Source of the DNA: Spirogloea muscicola
Taxonomy: Eukaryota
Reading direction: 5' to 3'
Length of the DNA stretch: 64,000 bases
Assembly: GCA_009602725.1 (NCBI GenBank)
Contig: WELB01000012.1
Coordinates: forward strand, 804,619 to 868,618
Shown: in pieces, positions 6,161-64,000 of the stretch
Layout: the number at the start of each line of letters is the position of its first letter
Numbering within the stretch: position 1 is the stretch's first letter
Program-made: the position numbers and the translations under genes
The notes under the pieces: generated by a model
What the model was told of the DNA's origin: nothing
What the model saw: only the letters and a program-made list of their open reading frames with translations
The model's database searches: none

Positions 6161-8383
6161 ATGAGCTGCCAGGTGTTCGACCTCCAGCCCCTGGTGAGCA
6201 GCCGGTCACGCCGTCAGCCTCGATCTCCGCGAGCCCCCATTGCTCGAGCTTGGGCTTGCGCTGACGGCGCCCGCCCCGGGCTCGGCCTGCGCCCTTTCCG
6301 AGCGCCCGCAGGAGCTGGAGCCGTACCAGATACGCGAGATCCTACGCTGTAAGACACCCCCCCCCCTGAGGACCGAGAGCTCAGGGCCTAGGGCTCGGAA
6401 TCGGGATCAGGGTTAGTCGCTCAACATCGGGAGTTAGGGCTCAGGAAGGGGCTCCTCGCTTCGCTCAGAAGCCCCCCACCGTCCTGGATCTCCAGCTAGC
6501 CTCCGCCGTCAAGTCCGTGCCCTGTTGTCATGGAGCCTGCTGGCGCAATTGCAAACCGCTGCTTGGACGTCCGGAAGCGGGCCAAGTGGCTGGCAAAGGG
6601 TAGTGCAGGGGCTGGCAGGGGTGCTCGGCAAGGCTGCCGCACTCTCGGGTCCCAATGGAGCCACTTAGAGAGGCGCAACCCACGCTTTGAGCATAAGCGA
6701 GGGTGCTCTACGGGTTGCTGGGAGGCCAATCACGTTGTGGTGCCTGGGACGCCCAACTTGACGAGGGTCTGTAGGCAGGCCCATCATCAACTGCCAGCAG
6801 CTCAACGCATGCCGAGCAGTCGTTGCTATGGTTGGCTTGTCCTCAAGCCCATAAAAACCCGCCTGTCGCAGGCCTCCTACACACTGTGCTGTTCAACCGG
6901 GCGCTAGGGCTGGTGCGCCCGCGGGACGTGGACTTGGAGCTCTTTGACATCACCTACGTGACCACCCCTCCCATTGCTCTCACTTTCACGTTCTCTTGGC
7001 CTGCTAGCGGAGCAGCTCCTGAGTACTTTTCATATGCTGTGCCGTTCTTGTTCCATTCGTCATTAAGCACCAACAAAAGACTTGTCCTTCCTTTGGGCTG
7101 AGCCCACTCAATAGTGCATGTCAGGTGCAGTGTGGCAACGCAGCCATAGAGAAGCTGGTGGAGGAGCGCATTGACTTCTTCTGTGCGTGGATGGATAAGC
7201 ACCCGAGCAAGAAGGGGCAGGCAAGCACATGCCAGGCAGCTTGAGTGATGGGTTGTGAAGCTCTGGCGACTGCTTCTTGCTAGTCCTGCCATTCCAGCAA
7301 GTCATCAAAGTGCCAAGTCCTGTAATAGGGCCTAGCTTCCAGCCTACATCCAGCACGAATGTGTATGTTGTTTCAGTTGTACCATATGTGCAGTTGTCCT
7401 TATGTTGTAGGGCAATCGACAGAGTATGTTGTAGAGGTAGGCATGTATGCATGTCATTGATTGAAGTTTAGTGCCTGCTTACTTCTCCAGGTATGCCTCT
7501 CATTCTATGAAAAGAGGAATAAGCAGATGGCGTGGTTCGGCAACCAGATGGAGCGCCTCTATTGGGAGCAGTGGTGCATTCACCTGGCTGTCGTGCAGTC
7601 GCCTGAAGCAACCCACCGGCTGGACAAGGTCTTAGACGGTGCTGGTGAGGCTGTCAGACATTTCTGTACAAAAGTTACGGCCCCTGCTGTCTTGACATGT
7701 TTGGACGCCCGTTACGGCCCCTGCTGTTTGCACATACTTGTGCTTGTTTGCTGCAGCACATGGTGATTGCCTGCAGGAGCTTAACATAGCAGTGTTTGTC
7801 ACAATGCTACGGTTTTTAGTTCTGAGATTCACTTGCGAGCGCCTATTTGTTAAAGTCTGGCTGGACGCAAATATACGTCTCTCTCTCTCATGAAATTTCT
7901 TGGCTCCAAGGAGACTTGCGCTAATGATCTTGCTGCTGCTCCTTGCCAGACATATTGGCAGAGGAGCGGCTACGACGGCATGCCGCGCTCGAGGCCACCG
8001 TTCGAGAGACGATACTGCAGATTTTACAGATTATCGATGAGAAGAAGGAACACATTCCGCCAGTTTTGAGCTCGGAGGTTGCCTGCTTTCCCTACGAGAT
8101 TACCATCCCAAGGTGAGGAATGCTTACCTCTTTGGCTCTTTGGAGTCAATCTGTGCCAGCTGGGTTGACAGCATAGTGTCACAGAGGAGCTGCACTGCTT
8201 TGCTGGCCGTGGCACACAGCCCAATATCATGCACGGGACCACAGCCTGGGCTACCTTGGCTGCTTCTATTTAGGAGCTGAATCCTGGATTATAACTCGTC
8301 CATGCAGTGCCTCGGACTCGGCGTTTGGCATGGACATGTTCAAAAGGATGCTGCAAACTAATCCTCCAACAATGTTGAGCTAG
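6161..8383 (+). CDS. ATG101: Autophagy-related protein 101, 7 exons
   Basis: Spliced protein MSCQVFDLQPLELEPYQIREILRCLLHTVLFNRALGLVRPRDVDLELFDITYVQCG...WMDKHPSKKGQVCLSFYEKR...AWF...ERLYWEQWCI...KKEHIPPV...FPYEITIPSASDSAFGMDMFKRMLQTNPPTMLS* matches plant ATG101 including the WF finger. Intron 4 (7221-7490) has a GC donor. Confidence 0.95.
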
Positions 8384-13264: not shown

Positions 13265-13916
<652 letters not shown>

Positions 13917-20950: not shown

Positions 20951-21468
20951 NNNNNNNNNNNNNNNNNNNNNNNNNNNNNNNNNNNNNNNNNNNNNNNNNN
21001 NNNNNNNNNNNNNNNNNNNNNNNNNNNNNNNNNNNNNNNNNNNNNNNNNNNNNNNNNNNNNNNNNNNNNNNNNNNNNNNNNNNNNNNNNNNNNNNNNNNN
21101 NNNNNNNNNNNNNNNNNNNNNNNNNNNNNNNNNNNNNNNNNNNNNNNNNNNNNNNNNNNNNNNNNNNNNNNNNNNNNNNNNNNNNNNNNNNNNNNNNNNN
21201 NNNNNNNNNNNNNNNNNNNNNNNNNNNNNNNNNNNNNNNNNNNNNNNNNNNNNNNNNNNNNNNNNNNNNNNNNNNNNNNNNNNNNNNNNNNNNNNNNNNN
21301 NNNNNNNNNNNNNNNNNNNNNNNNNNNNNNNNNNNNNNNNNNNNNNNNGCCGCCGCCTCTTGCGGCGGCCCGCGCGGTGGACTCCGGTGCCGCCGCCTGT
21401 GAGTCGCCCTCACCACGGCGAGAGCATGGCAGCTGCCACCGCGTGGCCGCCGTGCCCCGTGGCCAGCC

Positions 21469-27654: not shown

Positions 27655-28834
27655 NNNNNNNNNNNNNNNNNNNNNNNNNNNNNNNNNNNNNNNNNNNNNN
27701 NNNNNNNNNNNNNNNNNNNNNNNNNNNNNNNNNNNNNNNNNNNNNNNNNNNNNNNNNNNNNNNNNNNNNNNNNNNNNNNNNNNNNNNNNNNNNNNNNNNN
27801 NNNNNNNNNNNNNNNNNNNNNNNNNNNNNNNNNNNNNNNNNNNNNNNNNNNNNNNNNNNNNNNNNNNNNNNNNNNNNNNNNNNNNNNNNNNNNNNNNNNN
27901 NNNNNNNNNNNNNNNNNNNNNNNNNNNNNNNNNNNNNNNNNNNNNNNNNNNNNNNNNNNNNNNNNNNNNNNNNNNNNNNNNNNNNNNNNNNNNNNNNNNN
28001 NNNNNNNNNNNNNNNNNNNNNNNNNNNNNNNNNNNNNNNNNNNNNNNNNNNNNNNNNNNNNNNNNNNNNNNNNNNNNNNNNNNNNNNNNNNNNNNNNNNN
28101 NNNNNNNNNNNNNNNNNNNNNNNNNNNNNNNNNNNNNNNNNNNNNNNNNNNNNNNNNNNNNNNNNNNNNNNNNNNNNNNNNNNNNNNNNNNNNNNNNNNN
28201 NNNNNNNNNNNNNNNNNNNNNNNNNNNNNNNNNNNNNNNNNNNNNNNNNNNNNNNNNNNNNNNNNNNNNNNNNNNNNNNNNNNNNNNNNNNNNNNNNNNN
28301 NNNNNNNNNNNNNNNNNNNNNNNNNNNNNNNNNNNNNNNNNNNNNNNNNNNNNNNNNNNNNNNNNNNNNNNNNNNNNNNNNNNNNNNNNNNNNNNNNNNN
28401 NNNNNNNNNNNNNNNNNNNNNNNNNNNNNNNNNNNNNNNNNNNNNNNNNNNNNNNNNNNNNNNNNNNNNNNNNNNNNNNGGCGGCGGCGCACGCGGCGGC
28501 GGCGCTGGCGGCGGCGGCGGCCAGGGCTGGCGCCGGGGGGAAGAAAGGAAGGCGGTGAGGAGGCGGCGGAAGGGGATGGAGCTGGCGTAAAACAATCAGC
28601 GCTGGCAGCAGATTGTATCGCGTCAGCAGATTCGTGCGCAAAAAGCGCCCGGGGGGACAGATCACATCGTACTTGCGTTCCGGGCTCCCCGCCCGCCCGA
28701 GGACCTGACGAGGACGGCGACTGAACGGCTCCCCGGCACCGTTCCGTTGGGGTCTTATCAATCTCCCGACCGTGGGTTTGACTCACCTCCCTTGCGCCTT
28801 CGACGAAAATGCTTGTCAACAGAAGAAGCAAGTC

Positions 28835-50619: not shown

Positions 50620-53600
50620 CGCCATCCGGCCTTTTCTGGCTTTGCCAGCCCCTCTTCTCTATGGGCACCACTTCTTCTTTCAGACCTTGTCCATTCCTTT
50701 GGGCTGGCCTCTCACAGCCACTGCTGTCAACTTGGAAGCGCTGTATACCAATACGACCACCGTCTCGGCCTGGCCTGCCTTTTGCCGCTCAGATGCCTTG
50801 TCAAGTCGTTTCTTCTTTCTCTTTCGAGCTGGCTTTTCCACAGCCCTCGCCCCCTTTGGATGAGCTCACTTTCCTGACGCCTCTTTGCCTCCATGTCGGA
50901 GAGAAGAAAGGGCGATGGCTGTGAAAGGCAGCTGCGCAGAAAAGGAGATACAAATGGAGAGGTACAGGAGCTTCTCTTTACGCCATCTGGGGTACGCAGG
51001 CAGGTTCCGTGCTGCGGGCTCGATGGCCCAGGTTTCTCAAATGCGCCTTTCCACCTCGCTGCTGAGGTCCCAGGCGTTCGTTTGCCTTGCAGCTGCTTGC
51101 TGGCCGTTGCATTGGCTGCCGCCTTCAGTGGCGCCTGTACATCCCTTCTCCTAACCATTTCTTAGTCACGTCCAAGTATTGACTTAGGGAGGCTGAGTCA
51201 CCGGTGCCTAGCCAAATCTTTCTGCTAGTCTGCGCTTCCTTTGTCGTCGTCTCCCTATAGCTTTGCCCGACCATTTATGCTTGGCAAGAAGAGAAGTGGC
51301 TCTTTCAAAGGGGGCAAGGGCTGTGAACAGCCGGCCCAAAATAATACAAGGTCCGAAGGGGCCAAAAGTGCTGTTGCAGAGCTCGGGTCGGATGGATCAA
51401 TTAGTAACCACGACTGAGGCGCCGTAATCCGAAGGACGAGCAGCTGGATTGCAATCCCCTGACGGAACCCAGAGGCTGCAGCTAGAGCACGGCCAGCACG
51501 TAGGTGCATGGCGTGGGCCATGGACCGCTGGAGGGAGATGGAGAGGCGCATGCTATGAACTTGAGCTAGCGAGCCAGCGGCGTTGAAGTCAGCCTGCTCA
51601 CCTCGCCTGCGGGACACAGCGCGCCGCAGAGGAGCACCTGTCAGGCGGCCTGCTGGCCTCTACTGGCTCACCAAAGCAAAGCAACCGCGGGGGCTCTTGC
51701 TCGGCGACAAGACTCTGCGGCCCCAAGGTCACAGCTGGAGCAGCCGACGCCCGACACCGCCGTTGGTCTCCGGTCGTCTGCGCCGGCGGCGCAGACGGGG
51801 ACTTGACAGTCGGGCCCCGGCAAGTGTACCGCATGCGCTTGGCCGTCTCGCTGCAGAGGTCTATGGCCCGCGCGCTGCACCTGCGTGCAGGCGGAGCCCT
51901 CACTGCTGCCTCTGGCTCTGGCCTGGGGACCCGCTTCCAGGGACCCAGTCTCTCTGACCTGAGGCTGCTTAGCAGGGGTTACTGAGTGCTTCGTAGCTGT
52001 TTCGTTTCTTTTTTGTGCTTGTTGTTCTTCGTACTTCCCCTGGCTCGGCTTCTGACTCGGGGTTACTCAGAGCCCATATGCTGTATCCACTGGCATCGCT
52101 GTATCACTTCAGCACCTTCGGCCCTTTGAGCCTTGTCCATTTCTGGGCTGGCTTTCCACAGCCCTCGCCCTTTTTTAAGAGAGTATACTTCTGCAGTGTG
52201 GGACGTGGGCTTGCTGCTGTAGATGCACTTTTCCTCACTTTCCCAGTCGCAAGCTACTCTGACATGCGGCTACTAAGTGGAGGTTATCATGTATTCATCC
52301 TCTTTGGCACTTGCTGAGCTGTGTGCTTCAGCACTTTTCGGCCCTTTCGGACCTTGTCAACATTACTTCGGGCTGGCTTTTCAAGGCCTTCGCCCCCTTC
52401 TGGAAGAGCCACTTTCTTGCGCAGTTGCCATAGCTGTGTGATTCAGCGCTTCGGGCCTTTTCGGACCTTGTCCATTCAATAGCCTCCCACATTCATCCCC
52501 TGTAAATCAGATCTCGTTCTCAAGGCTCCCTGTATGCATTCGCTGGCTTTTGTAGCCGCCCCTTATGGTAGCAGGCGCTTCTTTTAGGGCTGGCCTCTGT
52601 CAGCCCCAAATCTCTATGGGCGCGCAATTTCTTTCTACCCTGTGACGTGCTTCTCCGGGCAGCCCCGGCGACCGAGCCTGCGCTGCTGCTGAGGGCCCTC
52701 ATGGACAGCCTGTGGGACGAGTGCTTGGCGGTGCTGGCGCGCGCCGCTGCGATGTCAGATACTTCGCCAGCTTTGGCTACGACTTGTGCCGCCCGCCAGT
52801 GGTGCTGCCTGGTCAAAGCTGCCGTCTAAAATTTCCAGCTTTGTGGACCTTGTCTATGGGCGAGCCATTTCTTGTTCATTCTTTTGTGGGTTGGCTTGTC
52901 CCAGTCCACGCCCCCTTAAGAGCTGATTTTGTTTCCAGGTGCTTCAGGCTTCCTACTGGTCAGAGAAGGGCTCGCCCATTGAGGATAGAAGATAGGGGCC
53001 GGGAAAAGCCAGCCCAAAAAAGAATGAACAAAGTACGAGAAGGGGCCAGGGGAAGAAAGTGCTCGCCCATAGAGAAGAGGGGCTGGCAAAGCCAGCCCAT
53101 CTTCTAAAGTCCCAAGTCAGAGAAAGAGGAGCCGAACAAGCACTTAGAAAAACAAGCAGAAGAAGAACCTAAGCAACTACGAAGCACTCATTAACAACTT
53201 GTAACTGTTGACAAGGGCGGGTTATTAAGCGGATTTCCTCATGTTTCCTCTTGCGGGTTTACTTGCTTTCCTGAGTGATCTCCATCTTTTCCGGATCTGT
53301 CAGACCTAGTTCAGTCTTTTCTTCAGACCTATATCTCCTTTTGGGCTGGCTTTTCACATTTGAGGCTCCTCATTCGTAACTACTTAGTGGTCCATCCTCC
53401 CCCGTTCTGACATAGCATCTTCAGGCCCCTTCGTAGCTGCTTAGCGCTTTTTAGGCCCCTCCGTCGTTTGGCCCCTTCGAACCATTGTCAATTCTTTTCG
53501 GGCTGGCTTTTCACAGCCCTTGCCCCCATTGGGAGTTCCACTTCTCTTTTCACAGCCCTTGCCCCCAGTGGAAGAGCCACTTGGGGCTGGCCTTCTTCTA

Positions 53601-55670
53601 CAGCCCATGCTCGCGCTCTTTGGAAGCCGCTCCTTTTTGAAAGAGCATGTTTTACTTTGAAAATTCTGCTCTTTCTGACGGCTGGCCCTTACTTTTCTTT
53701 TACGGCACCTTCTTGGGCGTTGGATGTTGTCCATTCTTTTTGGACTGGCTTGGACCTGCCGGCCAAGCTTGCGCGGCGCGCTGTCCCGCAGGCGAGGTGA
53801 GCCGGCTGACTTCAACGCCGCTGGCTCATGGGCCCAGGTAGAAGGAACCTCGCCCTACACACGCAGTTAGGGTGAGCAGTCCTTCTTGAGTTCGGCTGTG
53901 GGGGTTTTAGGGACCAACCCACTACACAGGCAAAGCACTAGCGCATAGGCGCAGCGGAAGACAGGCCCCGTGGCGCCGCCGTCCGGCGGCGACTCCACCT
54001 CCTGGGCGCAGGCCGGCGCAGCAGGCCCCGCAGCAAGGTGCGGCGGCGGCTGCGGCGGCGAGCAGCGGCAAGGCTGCTCCTGGGCTTCACCGGCTCGAAC
54101 TCCCCCCGAGCCTCGGCCCCCAAGGCTCTGCGTGCTTCCCCGTGCCACCCCCCCCTCCAGGGGTGTGAGCGGGTCGCCCTATGGCCTGCCAGGCGGCGGG
54201 CCAAAGATCCTCCCTTGAACGGGCGGATCCTAGCGAGGGTATTCCTGGACGGGCGGGGCCCGCCTCTGGGCGGGCCACTTGCCCGGCAAGTCAGCCCGCC
54301 ACCTGGCGGGCCCACTTGTCCCAAATAGCCGGTCATGTGATGCCAACAGAGCCACTTGGCTTAACCAAACGGCTGGTTCATTACACCAGGGGACCCGCTT
54401 CCAGGAACCCAGTCTCTCTGACCTGAGGCTGCTTAGCAGGGGTTACTGAGTGCCTCGTGGCTGCTTAGTATCTTCTTGTGCTTGTTTTTCTTAGTGCTTC
54501 CCCTGGCCCCTTCTCGTCCTTTGTTCATTCTGTTTTGGGCTGGCTTTTTCCAGCCCCTATCCTCAATAGGCGAGCCCTTCTTCTTAAGTCTATCGCATGC
54601 GGTTGTCAGTCTCCCTTCAGCGGTGCATGGCACATGCCTTGCATCTGCGTGCTGGCCGGGCTCTCGCTGCAGCCTCTGGCTGTCGCCAGGGGATTGTTTT
54701 CCCGCTAGTCTGTCGGATTTGAGGCTCCTCACTCGTCACTCCTCCACCCGTTCTGCCATATCGCTTTAGGCGCTACTACTAGAGGTACTGCGATTCCAGT
54801 ACTGAGAGTCCCCTTTGCTGCTGTCTTAGTACTTAGCACACCGGCTCCTTCAGACCTTGTCCAATTTATTGGGCTGGCCTCTCCCAGCCACCAGTCAATC
54901 TGTCCGCGCTTTTGTCCGTTTCTAGGCCCCTCCGTCATTTGGCCCTACAAACCTTTGTCAATGCCATGCAGCAGGGTCGCTAGCGCAGGTGTACCGCATG
55001 CGCTTGGCCGTCTCGCTGCAGAGGTCTATGGCCCGCGCGCTGCACCTGCGTGCAGGCAGAGCCCTCGCTGCTGCCTCTGGCTCTGGTCAGGGGACCCGCT
55101 TCCAGGAACCCAGTCTCTCTGACCTGAGGCTGCTTAGCAGGGGTTACTGAGTGCTTCGGAGCTGCTTCGTTTCTTTTCTGTGCTTGTTGTTCATCGTACT
55201 TCCCCTGGCCCCTTGTCGTCCTTTGTTCATTCGTTTCTGGGCTGGCTTTTTCCAGCTCCTATCCTCAATGGGCGAGCCTTTCTTTGTCAATTCTTTTCAG
55301 AGCAAGCGCGGCCAGATTAACTGGTGGCTGGGAGAGGCCAGCCCAAAAGAATGGACAAGGTCTGAAGGAGTCGGAGTGCTAAGGACTGAGACAGCAGTAA
55401 GCGAACTCTCAGTAACCTCTCGTCAGTAGATGCAAGTCTGAGTAGCTAGCAGGCGGGCTTTTCGGGCTGGCTTTTCACAGCCCTTGCCCCCACTGGGAGA
55501 GCCACTTCTTCCGCTTGGCCAGCACCTCTTCTTTAAGGGCGCGCCATTCTCTTCCAGTCAGCGGCGCGGGCAGCAGCTTGGCAGTGTTGTTCATATCTCT
55601 ATATCTGGGCTGGCTAATCACAGCCATCGTCCTAAAATAGAGCCGTTTCCTTTAAGTGGAAGAGACTTCC
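50620..55670. mobile_element. Dense cluster of CRE-like non-LTR retroelement 3' fragments on both strands
   Basis: Many copies of the RMRLAVSLQRSMA.../LLSRGY* peptide end (e.g. 51290-51625 minus, 51810-52050, 54975-55285) and of the GGGCTGGC...CAGCCC 3' hairpin. Confidence 0.87.
52698..52829 (+). pseudogene. Isolated F-box motif fragment
   Basis: LMDSLWDECLAVLARAAAMS...AARQWCCLVKAAV* aligns by eye with IESLPDECLTAVLARAAAR...CRRWRRLAKAAI of the F-box gene at 40172. No LRR continuation. Confidence 0.65.
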
Positions 55671-58697: not shown

Positions 58698-58891
58698 AGA
58701 AGGGCTCGCCTATTGAGGATAGGGGCTGGAAAAGGCCAGCCCAGAAAAGAATGAACAAAGGACGAGAAGGGGCCAGGGGAAGTACGAAGAACAACAAGCA
58801 CAGAAAAGAAACGAAGCAGCTACGAAGCACTCAGTAACCCCTGCTAAGCAGCCTCAGGTCAGAGAGACTGGGTTCCTGGAAGCGGGGCTCC
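58698..58891 (-). mobile_element. 5'-truncated CRE-like element (subfamily C) with a 12-bp target-site duplication
   Basis: Flanked by tggctgtaatag at 58686-58697 and 58892-58903; near-identical to the copies at 33900-34120, 38789-38994 and 55090-55285. Confidence 0.9.
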
Positions 58892-58961
58892 TGGCTGTAA
58901 TAGGCTTAGCCCGGACAAAGATGTAACATTAGAACCCCTTCGGCAGCCTGCGACGGCTGCC

Positions 58962-61420
58962 ATGGCGGCCCTGCCCGCCGCCGCCGCTGCCGCCGCCGCC
59001 GCCGGCAGCGGCGGCTGCAGTGGCGGCNNNNNNNNNNNNNNNNNNNNNNNNNNNNNNNNNNNNNNNNNNNNNNNNNNNNNNNNNNNNNNNNNNNNNNNNN
59101 NNNNNNNNNNNNNNNNNNNNNNNNNNNNNNNNNNNNNNNNNNNNNNNNNNNNNNNNNNNNNNNNNNNNNNNNNNNNNNNNNNNNNNNNNNNNNNNNNNNN
59201 NNNNNNNGGCCACGGGCGCAGACGCCGCCGCTGCAGGTCCGAGCCCGCCGCCGCCGCCGTCGCCGCCGCCGCCGCCGGCGCAGATGCGCTTAGGAGCGGC
59301 TCTCATCCTGGCTTGCAGCACCGACGGGCTGCCGCTCGGCAGGGCGACGACGAGCCCATCGCGGCCGCCGTCTCGGCAATGTAGGCCACCATAGCCACTT
59401 CCCCATGACCGCTAGAGCTGAGGCTAGCGCCCGGCGCTTGTGCCGGCGGCAGCAGCGGCGCTGGCAGCTGGCGGCGACGGCGGCACGCGCGAAGTGGAGT
59501 TCCGGTGGGCCGGCGGCGGCGACGACGTGCGGCTCACGGGCGACTTCTGCGGCTGGGGCGCGCAGCTGCCCATGGCGCGCGCCACCGACGGCGCCGCCTT
59601 CACGCTCAAGCAGGTCCGCCCAAATCAGAAGCGTCACCAAATAGACCTCTGAGGTCCGCCCGAAAAGCAAAGCCAAATGGGACTCGAACCTGCATCTTCC
59701 AATGGATCCGCTGCGCGCCTGAAACTACGTTGCAGAGCCTGGCGCCGGGGACGTACAGCTACAAGTTCATCGTGGACGGCCGATGGCGGCACGCCGCCGA
59801 CCAGCCCAGCACTGGCGACGGCGTGGACGGCTTCAACAACACCATCACTGTCGAAGGTGAGCGGGTGCTCCCTCTCAGCCCAGAATCGGCTGAGTAGCAC
59901 TTATGGGCTGGCCCGCTTAACGTCCTGTGGTGATGATGCCCAAGTAGCAAAATCAAAGTCAGCTGATTTGGCCCTTGCAGCTGCATCAGCGCTTCACTTG
60001 CGAGCACAATGGGTCAGATTCGTCTGTGAATATTTAATGTATGTGAGCACTAATGTGCAGCCTGTGCTGCATTAGTGCGTCAGCTCACACCTTGCTGCCA
60101 ATGCCGCAGCTCCACCTCTTGCCAGTGTCGAGGAGAAGGTCCCAGTGAAACCAGCACAGGGTGCCTCAGAAGTGGAAGCCAAGGAGGCGCTGCCCTCCGG
60201 TGGTAGCGCTCTGCCACAAGCGCCACCTGAGCAGAAGGAGGCAGACAGCCTTCCGAAACAGCCACCGTCGCCCTTGCCTACTGACAAAGGCAGCGAGGAC
60301 AATGGCAAGCCGGCTGTGAAGGTAGTGACTGGCGAGGCCATTGCCGCTGCCAAGGCTGACGAGAAGAAGCCCGCTGGGAAGAGGGCAGGGAAGAAGGCCA
60401 CTGTTGTGCGGCCCATTGGGGAGGTCATGAATGGCGAGGTCATTCCTCAGCTCGCGGCGGCACTAGAGAAGGAGCCGGACGTGAGCAGTGTCGACCTCAC
60501 ATTTGCTGACAACCAGGTGAGGAGAGACACCTAGGTCTTCTGAACCTTCTAGCAAGAGCAGAGGCTGCCACGTCTTTTGGCTGGTCACTACATAGGCACA
60601 GGAGCAGCTGGGGGGATTCCCCTCTACCTGACAGAGTGCTTGCCCAGCCCAAGCTAGACAGCAGGCGCAGGAGTCTATATGCTCATAATACGCGTGCTGA
60701 GGTCTTCCAGCAACTGCAGATGACAAGGCAGATCATTGTGTTTCCACCAAGGGGCTGATCCGCTGGCTTGCATTGGCCTCCAACTGCTGGAAATCCTGCT
60801 GCTTTAGTTCTAAGATTGAGGCAGGGCAAACTTTGTGAGAGTGGACGGGGTTGACAATCATATCTGCGAGGCAGTATCCTCATCTATGCAAGCGGGGCTC
60901 TTTCCAGTGATGTAAGCCGCAAACGCTAAGCATTCAAAGCTCCTCGTGTTGCCTTGTGTCAACCTGCAGTTGCGCGGCAGCTTTGTCAAGGGGCCCGTCC
61001 CCTACTGCTTCTGGGCCTACTTTCCAAGCGGCACTCTTGAAGGTACCTCACTCGCATTGTCTTGTCAGGCCCGCTCATAAGCTGGCCATATCTTACGTAT
61101 GGAGGGTTCTGTGCTGACCACTACTGACACGATCAGCATTGGCTAGCTACCTTATCTTGTGGCTGCTCTTGTGTGGTCAGCATGAGGACAACACCTGGCA
61201 TCTTTGCTGCTCGTCAAGCTTGTAGCTCGTTCATAACCCCTTGCTAATTGACACTCTCGGTCCAATCACAGGCCCACGCGGCTTCTCGTTGACGTCCCAC
61301 GGCGGGACACCAAGTACTGTGGAGCCTTTCTTGATTGACGAGCGCAAGATCACGGCCGAGCTGCTCGTGTTCTGGGTACGCAAACGCCTCTTTGCACAGA
61401 AGATATTATCTCTAAATTAG
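58962..61420 (+). CDS. Putative plastid protein: transit-peptide-like N-terminus + CBM48 (AMPK-beta-type glucan-binding module) + Pro/Lys/Ala linker + NdhV (DUF2996) domain
   Basis: CBM48: REVEFRWAGGGDDVRLTGDFCGWG...|SLAPGTYSYKFIVDGRWRH...GFNNTITV. NdhV: EVMNGEVIPQLAAALEKEPDVSSVDLTFADNQ|LRGSFVKGPVPYCFWAYFPSGTLE|GPRGFSLTSHGGTPSTVEPFLIDERKITAELLVFWVRKRLFAQ. Exons 59453-59613, 59736-59856, 60110-60516, 60970-61042 and 61272-61420 join in phase. The 5' exon is interrupted by a gap. Confidence 0.88.
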
Positions 61421-62149
61421 TCCATTGCCCTGGCCTTTATCAGCCTGTGTCACGCATAAGAGATGCTGTCATGGACTGCTTACCGCAATGCCGGGAAAAT
61501 CTGACAGGCAGGCTGCCACCGATTCTTTCATGCACCAACACGACGACAATTTTGACCACTCAGAAACTTAGGACTCTGTGCTCTAATGTACCTGCTTTTC
61601 TTCACTTTTGATGTATCCAACTGCTGTGGCAGTGGCATTTGACTATTGCTCGTAGACGACTGACTATGAATGCTCTGTGATTGGGCAGCAAATTAAGACA
61701 GCCTATGCATAAAATACACACTTGCACCACGAGTATGCGCGTGTTCATGTTCAGAGCAGCATATTAAGGCTGGCATCCGTGAAGTCCATCATACTGTTAA
61801 TGGCAGCTCGAAGAACATGGGACGTTTTTGAAATTCACACTCCTCAGTGAAGTACGTTAATTTGTAGTGCTTAAATTTGCATCTTGGCTCCTCGAAGACA
61901 TTGCGACAGGTGCACAGGCTAGAGTCCTGAGACCCACTCTTGCACCAATATGTGCAAGTCAAGCTATGGGGAAGTGAAGATAACTACCAACATGGGAAGA
62001 TTAAGCTATGGAGTGGGGTAGCAAAAACAGCTACTGGTTACCCAACTTCCATGTGCAAAGAAGAAACCAGCATAGCTGCAGAAAAGTCTGCCGGCTTGTA
62101 TAACAAGCTCCACCTTAGCAGAGCCTACACGTCCTCGCTAACAGGCTCG

Positions 62150-64000
62150 TCACAAGATGGAGCCGTCAACTATGAGCTGTGGCTCCGGCTCCTGCTCCTC
62201 TGTCCTGTCCCGCAGCTCTTGCAGCTTCCTTTCTCGTACCTCGTCCATCAGTTGCCACGTCGAGTCGCTGATGAACTTCGTCTGAGGCAATCAACAGGAG
62301 TGAATCAGCAACAGCTCATGACCATTCAATCATGTCATACAGGTACCCAAAACCCGCTTCTATTCTTAGGATAGCAAGGTACGGAACATAAAGGCGTTGG
62401 ATTTACCAAATTGATCTTTGACACCGATTGCTCTGACTTGCAATCTATTAGATCAGCTCAATCTGCATGGCACGGACCTGTTGAAGCCTTGGAGCTCCGA
62501 AGGTGGCGTAGCCAACAGGGCCAGGATGGAACGTGGCTCGACCAGGCAGCGCCGTGCCGACTACGCCCCACCTGCCCACGTGCACAAGAGCACCGTACTC
62601 ATCCACCGGCCGTATCCTGTCCTGCAGGACAAGGGAGGGCTGGGAGCAACAGTCAGAGGCAGACACTGAGGGCACACACGCGTATTACATTTTAGCAACA
62701 GCAAGACGAGATTGCAAGACCTTGCGTGCCATGAACAGGCACTGCATGACAGACTTTGTCCTAGCTCTGGCAGCAGGGGACAAAGTCATACCTGTGCAAT
62801 GCGAGGGGCTCTGTTGAAAGCATTCCATATCTCCTCAGCTGACACTTCATCCTTCTCTGAGAGCATCTCTGCACGAGCAACCGTAAACGAATGAGCGCAA
62901 AAACTTTGAAACATAGCTACTTTGCGTGAAACCCTCGTTTACCTCATTTGCATGATTGTCAAGAAGACCTTGTGCTTCCCCCAGCTCTAATCATTATTCT
63001 AGTATTTACTGCGACGAATCCATGAGGCCAGCAGGTGTGCAACCACTTGGACATCTGATAAGGAGGGATCAGCAACCCACCAGCAATCGTCTCCACAGCA
63101 GACCTATATTCCTTCAGGATGGCAGTTGCCTTCTCCACAGCATACCGCATGTACTCGTCGCGCAAGGCCACAATCTTTGGCCCCAGCTGCCAGTGATACA
63201 AAGGGTAATACTGTCAATAAGCTGAACGCAAATCCATATGGGTTATCATCGAAAGCAGCCAGATCACACCTTACATATCACATCTTCATGCGACACTAAT
63301 TCATGGTCATGTCACCCATGCACATGTTTGACTGACCATGATTGATTTGGGCAAGTGTGTGTAAGTACATGGGTGACAACGTCCTGCTGTGTCTGGAAGG
63401 TGAGGGGGCCAAGCGCAGTCATTCCCGTGTTTAAGATGAGATAGTCAGCAAGCTGGGCAGCCTCCCCAAGCGCCGCACTTGACATCCACGACATGTTCTC
63501 CTTTCCAAAAATCATTTCCTCAATCACGCGAGCTGGAGCAGCAGACAAAGATTTGTGATGCTGAAATCTTTCAATGTGCCATGAAGGCAAGCAACATATA
63601 TACCATATAGTAGTGTGTTACAATGGAAGTGTGCATCAACAAGTCAAGCTAATAACACTATGCAGGCATTGTAGGCAAAGTGGCAAGACATCTTCTTAAG
63701 GGCCACTAGCCAAGTCCCCAAGCCTACTTGTGTCTGCCTTCATGAACATGGGGTAGGTCTACATACGAGCACAGGCGCGGACAATAGCATCCACAATTGC
63801 CGGTTTTCTGGCAAAGTGCCTGTGCTTGGGCTCGGCATACTCCATGTTCACGAGCGTGTCGATCTCCGTTGCGTTTGTCTACCTTGACCACAACACTCAA
63901 CCACAACACTTAGACATGAAGCAGAAGGCTTGCTGTTATAACAAAAGCAAGCAGACAAGGTCATCTGACCTCGCCCACACAATCATGTCTACAATTAGAC
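62150..64000 (-). CDS. FTSHI4: Proteolytically inactive plastid FtsH-like ATPase FtsHi4, 3' exons; 5' part outside window
   Basis: Spliced C-terminus FARKPAIVDAIVRACA|PRVIEEMIFGKENMSW...LILNTGMTALG, ALRDEYMRYAVEK, EEIWNAFNRAPRIAQ|DRIRPVDEYGALVHVGRWGVVGTALPGRATFHPGPVGYATFGAPR, ISDSTWQLMDE...* matches the FtsHi4 C-terminus as I recall it from Arabidopsis. Confidence 0.9.

What the first reader, a model, noticed from the sequence alone, without database searches (positions are those of the whole stretch)
58962..61420. Starch-binding CBM48 module fused to an NdhV (DUF2996) domain
Seen: phase-compatible exons join an Ala/Arg/Ser-rich N-terminus, a complete CBM48 with its Trp and YKFIVDG.W...NN signature, a long P/K/A/E linker and a full NdhV-like domain (STVEPFLIDERK...FWVRKRL). 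Established: NdhV is a loosely bound stromal subunit at the ferredoxin-binding side of photosynthetic NDH-1 and, in cyanobacteria and angiosperms, has no glucan-binding domain; plastid CBM48 proteins (PTST, SEX4/LSF) bind starch. Inference: a tether or sensor linking starch granules or the pyrenoid starch sheath to NDH-dependent cyclic electron flow.
Basis: partly seen in the sequence, partly recalled or inferred. Interest (0 to 1): 0.8.

Follow-up and report, generated by a model that had tools for sequence, protein, structure and literature searches.

The report
Starch-binding NdhV of seedless plants
This algal gene joins a starch-binding-type module to NdhV, a small activator of the chloroplast NDH complex; the same joined form occurs in early streptophyte algae, liverworts, mosses, lycophytes and ferns but not in the seed plants checked, and it likely links starch to cyclic electron flow.

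Summary
Confirmed. Five coding exons (59428/59453-61420, + strand) read without a stop as CBM48 - ~100-residue A/P/K/E linker - NdhV. Contigs of one public run join the decisive 59856/60110 junction and the two later ones at GT..AG. The fusion is not a local oddity: 27 of 31 hits carry both domains, and it is present in Chlorokybus, Klebsormidium, Zygnematophyceae, liverworts, mosses, lycophytes and ferns. Ginkgo, 76 named angiosperm records and three prasinophytes lack the CBM48. The four glucan-binding residues of the AMPK-beta module and the ferredoxin-side Arg-Lys of NdhV are kept. Best reading: this is the ordinary NdhV of seedless streptophytes, and its CBM48 likely binds starch reversibly and so sets how much NdhV reaches NDH; binding is untested. 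A pyrenoid-specific role is unlikely. The N-terminus crosses an N-run and is unverified. No paper in the searched library describes the fusion; a 2024 moss NDH study lists NdhV as 'no record', while the moss protein sits in UniProt as an AMPK glycogen-binding protein. This scan noted the same fusion before in a peat moss.

The parts
58962..59236 (+). Presumed first exon: ATG and Ala/Gly/Arg/Ser-rich putative chloroplast transit peptide, interrupted by a 180-base N-run (59028-59207); frame across the run and the donor at 59237 are unverified
   Evidence: full-length homologues carry 70-100 residue Ser/Ala/Arg-rich N-termini; no targeting predictor was run
59453..59613 (+). CBM48 exon 1 (domain from 59488; Trp at 59554-59556 equals AMPK-beta W100); 5' end could be 59428, 59453, 59456 or 59468
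   Evidence: Pfam AMPK1_CBM E 2.6e-6; PDB AMPK-beta CBM E 3.3e-5; acceptors listed
59736..59856 (+). CBM48 exon 2: Lys 59763-65, Trp 59784-86, Asn-Asn 59835-40 (AMPK-beta K126, W133, N150)
   Evidence: Pfam E 2.4e-11; conservation; spliced to 60110
59857..60109 (+). 253-nt phase-1 GT..AG intron between CBM48 and the linker/NdhV exon: the junction that makes the fusion
   Evidence: joined in contigs of run X1
60110..60408 (+). Low-complexity linker, 101 residues, A18 P15 K14 E11; predicted disordered
   Evidence: linker of homologue P0005 has pLDDT 45-59
60409..60516 (+). NdhV (DUF2996) domain, N-terminal helix and first strand
   Evidence: alignment; spliced to 60970
60970..61042 (+). NdhV domain, middle exon
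61272..61420 (+). NdhV domain, last exon with EPF..DERK motif (Arg-Lys at 61343-61348 = R122/K123 of Thermosynechococcus NdhV), C-terminal helix and stop
   Evidence: Pfam DUF2996 E 4.7e-12; alignment of homologue P0006 to 6khi_V; PMC7021789 passages

Best explanation
The gene encodes one spliced protein in which a CBM48 module is joined by a long linker to NdhV; it is likely the regular NdhV subunit of the chloroplast NDH complex in seedless streptophytes, and its CBM48 likely binds starch reversibly, which would set how much of this loosely bound activator is available to NDH. Shown here: the exon chain, three spliced junctions, both domains, their key residues and the spread across lineages. 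From the literature: NdhV is a transient subunit that props the NdhI loop, helps ferredoxin dock, and raises ferredoxin-dependent plastoquinone reduction in proportion to its amount. Inferred: import into the chloroplast; NDH binding of the fused form; glucan binding; partition between starch surfaces (or soluble maltooligosaccharides) and the NDH stromal arm, with a linker of about 35-165 residues long enough to touch both where granules lie against stroma thylakoids. Whether starch holds NdhV near NDH (activation) or away from it (damping) is open; I favour holding it near. Inferred history: gain of the two CBM48 exons early in streptophytes and loss of the same exons in the seed-plant ancestor.
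For: Spliced junction 59856/60110 in two sequence variants. Both domains in 11 of 14 hits and 27 of 31 hits, including transcript-derived complete ORFs (Netrium, Pteridium, Klebsormidium) and genome models (Marchantia, Riccia, Physcomitrium, Ceratodon, Sphagnum, Selaginella, Ceratopteris, Chlorokybus). In 35 aligned fused proteins (window included) the equivalents of W100, K126, W133, N150 are kept in 32 (3 models start after it), 35, 35 and 34; these residues are named as critical for AMPK-beta (PMC4032982) and the two Trp are needed for starch binding by PTST (PMC4339375). Against distant homologues the CBM48 is about as conserved as the NdhV domain (36-46 of 80 and 58-72 of 109 identical) while the linker is not (8-18 matches). 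A model of homologue P0005 shows two confident domains and a disordered linker (pTM 0.50); the first superposes on sugar-bound AMPK CBMs at 1.1-1.3 A. The NdhV-domain tree follows the plant lineages, with Ginkgo, Taxus and angiosperms (a named Zostera NdhV among them) as one group (99/96) placed among fused vascular plants (87/78, not starred). One Diphasiastrum gene has annotated forms with and without exactly the CBM48 (84 residues), and the motif that precedes the CBM48 in ferns runs straight into the linker in Ginkgo.
Against: The data do not reject a tree in which fused proteins form their own clade (AU p = 0.16), so orthology with seed-plant NdhV rests partly on not finding unfused paralogues in the named seedless genomes, and the searches are not exhaustive. 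The first basic residue of the ferredoxin-side pair is Asn or Ser in 8 of 35 fused proteins (liverworts, mosses). One unnamed unfused protein (P0059) falls next to Closterium, and seed plants run NDH and make starch without the module, so it is dispensable. The position matching AMPK-beta L146 (label recalled) is variable. PTST binding is described as weak or transient, so a firm mechanical tether is doubtful.
Confidence: 0.5

Rival explanations
1. The CBM48 works as a protein-contact or stabilising module on the NDH stromal arm (or with ferredoxin, NdhT/U), not as a glucan binder; seed plants replaced it with other subunits.
For: CBM48s of AMPK/SNF1 also act through protein contacts, and in yeast a role for glycogen is unclear (PMC4032982 passage). 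NDH of seed plants gained further subunits (PMC11629750 passage), roughly where the module is lost.
Against: All four glucan-contact residues are near invariant, which a pure protein contact would not require; the linker varies from about 34 to 165 residues, unlike a fixed packing contact.
Confidence: 0.2
2. The direction is reversed: NDH serves as a thylakoid anchor that displays a glucan-binding module, helping to start or place starch granules at thylakoids (as PTST2 with MFP1, recalled).
For: Same anatomy as the best reading; plastid CBM48 proteins without enzyme domains act as targeting adaptors (PTST).
Against: NdhV is a loose, transient subunit, a poor anchor; no coiled coil or enzyme partner domain is present in the model.
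Confidence: 0.15
3. The module ties NDH to the pyrenoid starch sheath to power CO2 concentration.
For: The alga's relatives (Zygnematophyceae, Klebsormidium, Chlorokybus) have pyrenoids (recalled) and the fusion; starch-binding SAGA proteins place the sheath in Chlamydomonas (listing only).
Against: Liverworts, mosses, lycophytes and ferns keep the module; prasinophytes with NdhV lack it.
Confidence: 0.08
4. Two neighbouring genes merged by gene prediction, or a functionless passenger domain.
For: A CBM-skipping form is annotated in Diphasiastrum; the 5' exons had no contig cover here.
Against: Spliced junction in contigs; 46 fused proteins held, several from transcript assemblies; strong conservation of the module.
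Confidence: 0.02

Closest known systems
NdhV (DUF2996, PF11210): Tlr0472 of Thermosynechococcus (PDB 6khi_V, 6l7o), Sll0272 of Synechocystis, angiosperm NdhV (named Zostera record P0209)
   Same: Same domain (E 1.2e-13 to 6khi_V for homologue P0006), same EPF..DERK motif and C-terminal helix, same basic A/P/K stretch before the domain; plant-type branch of the tree.
   Different: Carries an N-terminal CBM48 and a longer linker; no cyanobacterial, prasinophyte or seed-plant record examined has one.
CBM48 of AMPK beta (PF16561 AMPK1_CBM; PDB 1z0m, 4yee, 4yef)
   Same: About 41-44% identity and 1.1-1.3 A rmsd for homologue P0005; W100, K126, W133, N150 equivalents kept.
   Different: No ASC domain, not part of a kinase complex; predicted plastid protein. 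UniProt's name 'AMP-activated protein kinase glycogen-binding domain-containing protein' hides the NdhV half.
Plastid CBM48 proteins PTST1-3, SEX4, LSF1
   Same: Non-catalytic CBM48 joined to a second module that brings a partner to starch; LSF1 and SEX4 are sequence hits (E 1.6e-10, 1.1e-7).
   Different: Partner module is an electron-transport subunit, not a coiled coil or phosphatase; CBM48 is N-terminal.
SAGA1/SAGA2 pyrenoid starch-binding proteins
   Same: Link starch to another chloroplast structure (listing only).
   Different: Different module (CBM20, recalled), long coiled coils (recalled), pyrenoid-specific, chlorophyte.

Membership tests
NdhV | DUF2996 domain, homologous to solved NdhV | tested here: met
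   Pfam E 4.7e-12 on the last exon; 6khi_V is the top PDB hit of homologue P0006
NdhV | Adjacent basic pair facing ferredoxin (R122/K123) | tested here: met
   Arg-Lys at 61343-61348; mapped through; role from PMC7021789 (PMC6992706 sees no direct contact). First position basic in 27 of 35, second in 34 of 35
NdhV | Orthology with seed-plant NdhV | tested here: inconclusive
   Best tree nests seed plants among fused proteins but a fused-only clade is not rejected (p-AU 0.16); no separate unfused gene seen in named seedless streptophytes among the hits
NdhV | Only NdhV gene of this genome | not testable with these tools
   No genome is held for this window; two near-identical gene models (P0001, P0002) are fused too
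NdhV | Binds NdhS/NdhI and is needed for NDH activity | not testable with these tools
   Needs co-IP or mutants
NdhV | Chloroplast transit peptide | tested here: inconclusive
   N-terminus crosses an N-run; homologues have transit-like N-termini by eye; no predictor run
CBM48 (AMPK1_CBM) | Profile match and beta-sandwich fold | tested here: met
   homologue model and fold search
CBM48 (AMPK1_CBM) | Glucan-contact residues W100, K126, W133, N150 | tested here: met
   All four in the window; 32, 35, 35, 34 of 35; residues named in PMC4032982, mapped by spacing
CBM48 (AMPK1_CBM) | Measured binding to starch or glycogen | not testable with these tools
   Needs pull-down
AMPK/SnRK1 beta subunit | C-terminal ASC (AMPKBI) domain | tested here: not met
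   No such family on any exon or on full-length homologues P0039, P0042, P0065, P0072
PTST adaptors | Coiled coils N-terminal to a C-terminal CBM48 (recalled) | tested here: not met
   CBM48 is N-terminal; linker has no helix in the model of P0005

The most novel reading that the evidence does not exclude
For most of streptophyte history the activator subunit of chloroplast NDH was a starch sensor: NdhV binds starch through its CBM48 and thereby couples cyclic electron flow and dark plastoquinone reduction directly to the state of the starch store, a control that seed plants dropped by losing two exons and that lycophytes may switch by exon skipping.
Probability: 0.4. Interest if true: 0.88.

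Novelty: new variant of a known kind. Interest (0 to 1): 0.68.

Why it matters
A physical link between the carbon store and an electron-transport complex would be a new route for sink feedback on photosynthesis. It is directly testable in Marchantia (Mp1g06650) and Physcomitrium (A0A2K1L204), both routine genetic models. It also fills a gap in print: the 2024 moss PSI-NDH study could not look for NdhV because it found no database record, and the record exists under another name. The sharp split between seedless and seed plants gives a dated change in NDH architecture.

Tried and rejected
No whole genome is held, so a second NdhV gene in this organism could not be sought. Run search: no holder on record as RNA; one run guessed as RNA with a 0.20 share. 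Its contigs left 59208-59795 without cover, so the first intron and the 59613/59736 junction have no read support here; that blank is not evidence either way. Straight read-through from ATG 58962 stops at 59382, and GT at 59381 with AG 59415 or 59427 gives a stop or a phase clash: rejected. A profile of the fused CBM48 run over all 306 held proteins found 47 hits and no weak ones, so no decayed CBM48 is visible in seed-plant records. The fold search listed only CBM48-side matches in the rows shown; the NdhV side rests on sequence. Literature: NdhV+CBM48 0 papers; CBM48+NDH+cyclic electron 0; four gene or protein ids 0; DUF2996 2 papers, one read in passages (cyanobacteria only), one listing only; NdhV+starch 8 listings, none on this topic by title or abstract start; NdhV alone 57 papers, 40 listed; searches gave nothing on the fusion. 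Fan 2015 and Gao 2016, the original NdhV papers, are not held and might show the moss or lycophyte extension. Moss supplement: accessions A0A2K1L204 and A0A7I4DAM0 absent; it lists only assigned subunits. Neighbouring ORFs gave no Pfam family above cut-off. No complex prediction was sent: NdhV with NdhS/NdhI is a solved pair and would pass by likeness. One search failed on a script error and was rerun.

Full report
Observation. The region is a eukaryotic gene on the + strand. Five coding exons (59428-59613, 59736-59856, 60110-60516, 60970-61042, 61272-61420) are separated by GT..AG introns of 122, 253, 453 and 229 nt in phases 0, 1, 0, 1 and give 311 codons with a single terminal stop. Scanned one by one, the first two exons match AMPK1_CBM (E 2.6e-6, 2.4e-11) and the last DUF2996 (E 4.7e-12); the other two match nothing alone. 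The 5' end is less sure. The ATG at 58962 is followed by a 180-base N-run, and its frame stops at 59382 if read through. A donor at 59237 with acceptors at 59452, 59455 or 59467 would give a phase-1 intron in the CBM48 frame; 59427 would give phase 0. None was confirmed.

One transcript. The run search listed one run, guessed as RNA, holding 0.20 of the words. Eleven of its contigs laid on 59208-61700 and show joints at 59856/60110 (depth 24.9; a second, diverged variant at 17.1), 60516/60970 and 61042/61272, the main three read as GT..AG. The CBM48-to-NdhV junction is therefore spliced as predicted. This is one run of one study, and contigs cannot show level or strand. 59208-59795 had no cover. 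The intron inside the CBM48 is backed instead by two near-identical gene models, P0001 and P0002 (108 of 109 identical in the NdhV domain, 80 of 99 and 85 of 101 in the linker), whose ids follow the naming of the zygnematophyte Spirogloea muscicola (recalled); the window looks like a third copy.

Spread. With the last exon as query, 11 of 14 longer proteins carry both domains; the other 3 look cyanobacterial. With the NdhV part of P0006, 27 of 31 do; the four others are a Diphasiastrum short form, Cymbomonas, a Linum model merged with an RCC1-repeat gene, and a fragment. Named fused records: Chlorokybus, Klebsormidium, Netrium, Mesotaenium (Mesen1 label), Closterium, Marchantia (2 species), Riccia (2), Calypogeia, Physcomitrium, Ceratodon, Sphagnum (2), Selaginella, Diphasiastrum, Adiantum (2), Ceratopteris, Pteridium. 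A search of the 50% representatives with a CBM-less query gave 143 hits; I scanned 42 of them plus 3 other proteins with Pfam and looked up names for 20. Without CBM48: Ginkgo, Taxus (partial record), Trapa, Asparagus, Prunus, Camellia, Lolium, Zostera, and the prasinophytes Pyramimonas, Nephroselmis and Cymbomonas. A profile of 12 unfused proteins found 134 proteins, 120 listed, with candidates capped at 7993 and lengths 77-427. Of its 96 new records 3 have a CBM48 (Adiantum, Closterium, one unnamed); by my count 76 are named angiosperms, none with the module. Mesostigma, Chara, Coleochaete and hornworts did not appear under a name.

Both halves look functional. In 35 aligned fused proteins, the window's among them, the positions matching AMPK-beta W100, K126, W133 and N150 are kept in 32 (three models begin later), 35, 35 and 34. 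PMC4032982 names these four as critical (passages); I mapped them by their spacing in the 1z0m alignment. PMC4339375 shows the two Trp are needed for PTST to bind starch and calls that binding weak or transient (passages). The NdhV half matches 6khi_V (E 1.2e-13 for P0006) and the window keeps the Arg-Lys that PMC7021789 places at the ferredoxin interface (passages); PMC6992706 sees no direct contact and has NdhV propping the NdhI loop (passages). The first of the pair is Asn or Ser in 8 of 35. Against distant homologues the window's CBM48 has 36-46 of about 80 identities, NdhV 58-72 of 109, the linker 8-18. Linker length runs from about 34 to 165 residues over 46 fused proteins. An AlphaFold2 model of homologue P0005 (44-row alignment) has two domains with pLDDT mostly above 90, a linker at 45-59 and pTM 0.50, so the domains are predicted to move freely; the first superposes on sugar-bound AMPK CBMs at 1.1-1.3 A. 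The window's own protein was not folded.

History. A tree of 48 NdhV domains (116 columns; a hand-picked subset of the held proteins) separates cyanobacteria (100/100) and puts seed plants in one group (99/96) among fused vascular plants (87/78, not starred); Chlorokybus and Klebsormidium group with prasinophytes. Against my reading, the AU test does not reject a clade of the 26 fused rows plus P0059 (p 0.16). Exon anatomy favours loss: one Diphasiastrum locus has annotated forms with and without exactly the CBM48 (84 residues), and the Q/E..S/T-T motif that precedes the module in ferns and liverworts runs directly into the linker in Ginkgo and angiosperms. The intron after the module is phase 1 here; that the one before it is also phase 1 in other species is inferred from the proteins, not read from DNA. 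P0059, unnamed and unfused, sits beside Closterium and may be a second loss or a skipped form.

Mechanism. NdhV is loosely bound and raises ferredoxin-dependent plastoquinone reduction with dose (PMC7021789; PMC4916593 passages). A diffusible, dose-limited activator that carries an intact glucan-binding module on a flexible linker is most simply a protein whose availability to NDH depends on starch. I put the fusion being real at 0.97, glucan binding near 0.75, and regulation of NDH by starch through it near 0.5. Rivals: protein-contact role (0.2), NDH as thylakoid anchor for starch placement (0.15), pyrenoid-specific tether (0.08), artefact (0.02). The pyrenoid idea is weak because lineages without pyrenoids keep the fusion (PMC10473226, start of abstract only, names hornworts as the land-plant case).

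What is known. Both domains are known; the pairing was not found in print in ten searches. The library lacks most subscription papers, including the two original NdhV papers (nothing seen), and bioRxiv supplements are closed, so an earlier mention in an alignment or table cannot be excluded. Databases hold both Pfam labels but name the protein for its AMPK-type module. PMC11629750 states that moss NdhV has no database record and lists it at 22.4 kDa, 'No record' (passages and whole supplement), whereas the moss protein is a 358-residue fusion (A0A2K1L204). PMC8211685, PMC9326235 and PMC12038448 (passages) mention NdhV without any such domain.

Verdict. A real, conserved and apparently undescribed architecture of a known NDH subunit: new variant of a known kind, interest 0.68. 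The mechanism is inferred but cheap to test in Marchantia and Physcomitrium.

Noticed in passing
window 58698-58893; copies at 55088-55283, 54386-54581 (inverted) and about 52985-53204 (direct): A dispersed repeat of about 196 nt (90-95% alike) ends some 70 nt upstream of the presumed ATG; further partial copies cluster at 52500-55500. Looks like a short mobile or regulatory element.
   Followed up: partly
P0017 / P0210 versus P0030 (Diphasiastrum): Annotated forms of one locus with and without the whole CBM48: possible regulated exon skipping. Annotation only; no reads checked.
   Followed up: partly
window 62100-63620, minus strand: Several exon-like open frames of a convergent neighbouring gene; the two scanned gave no Pfam family.
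   Followed up: partly
P0069: A plant-type NdhV labelled Diacronema (Pavlova) lutheri, a haptophyte, groups with prasinophytes; contamination or mislabelling is likely.
   Followed up: no
P0001, P0002, P0009, P0003, P0027: Several public gene models of this protein miss the transit peptide or half of the CBM48; others are merged with neighbours (P0057 with a reverse transcriptase, P0037 with an RCC1-repeat protein).
   Followed up: no
P0011, P0021, P0026, P0027, P0039 (mosses): The otherwise conserved Phe-Trp of the NdhV C-terminal helix is replaced by Gln-Gln or Gln-Gly in these moss-type proteins, a lineage-specific change at the helix that contacts NdhI.
   Followed up: no
window 13265-13790, 20951-21348, 27655-28479, 50052, 59028-59207: Five N-runs in the window; the last lies in the GC-rich first exon of this gene.
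   Followed up: no
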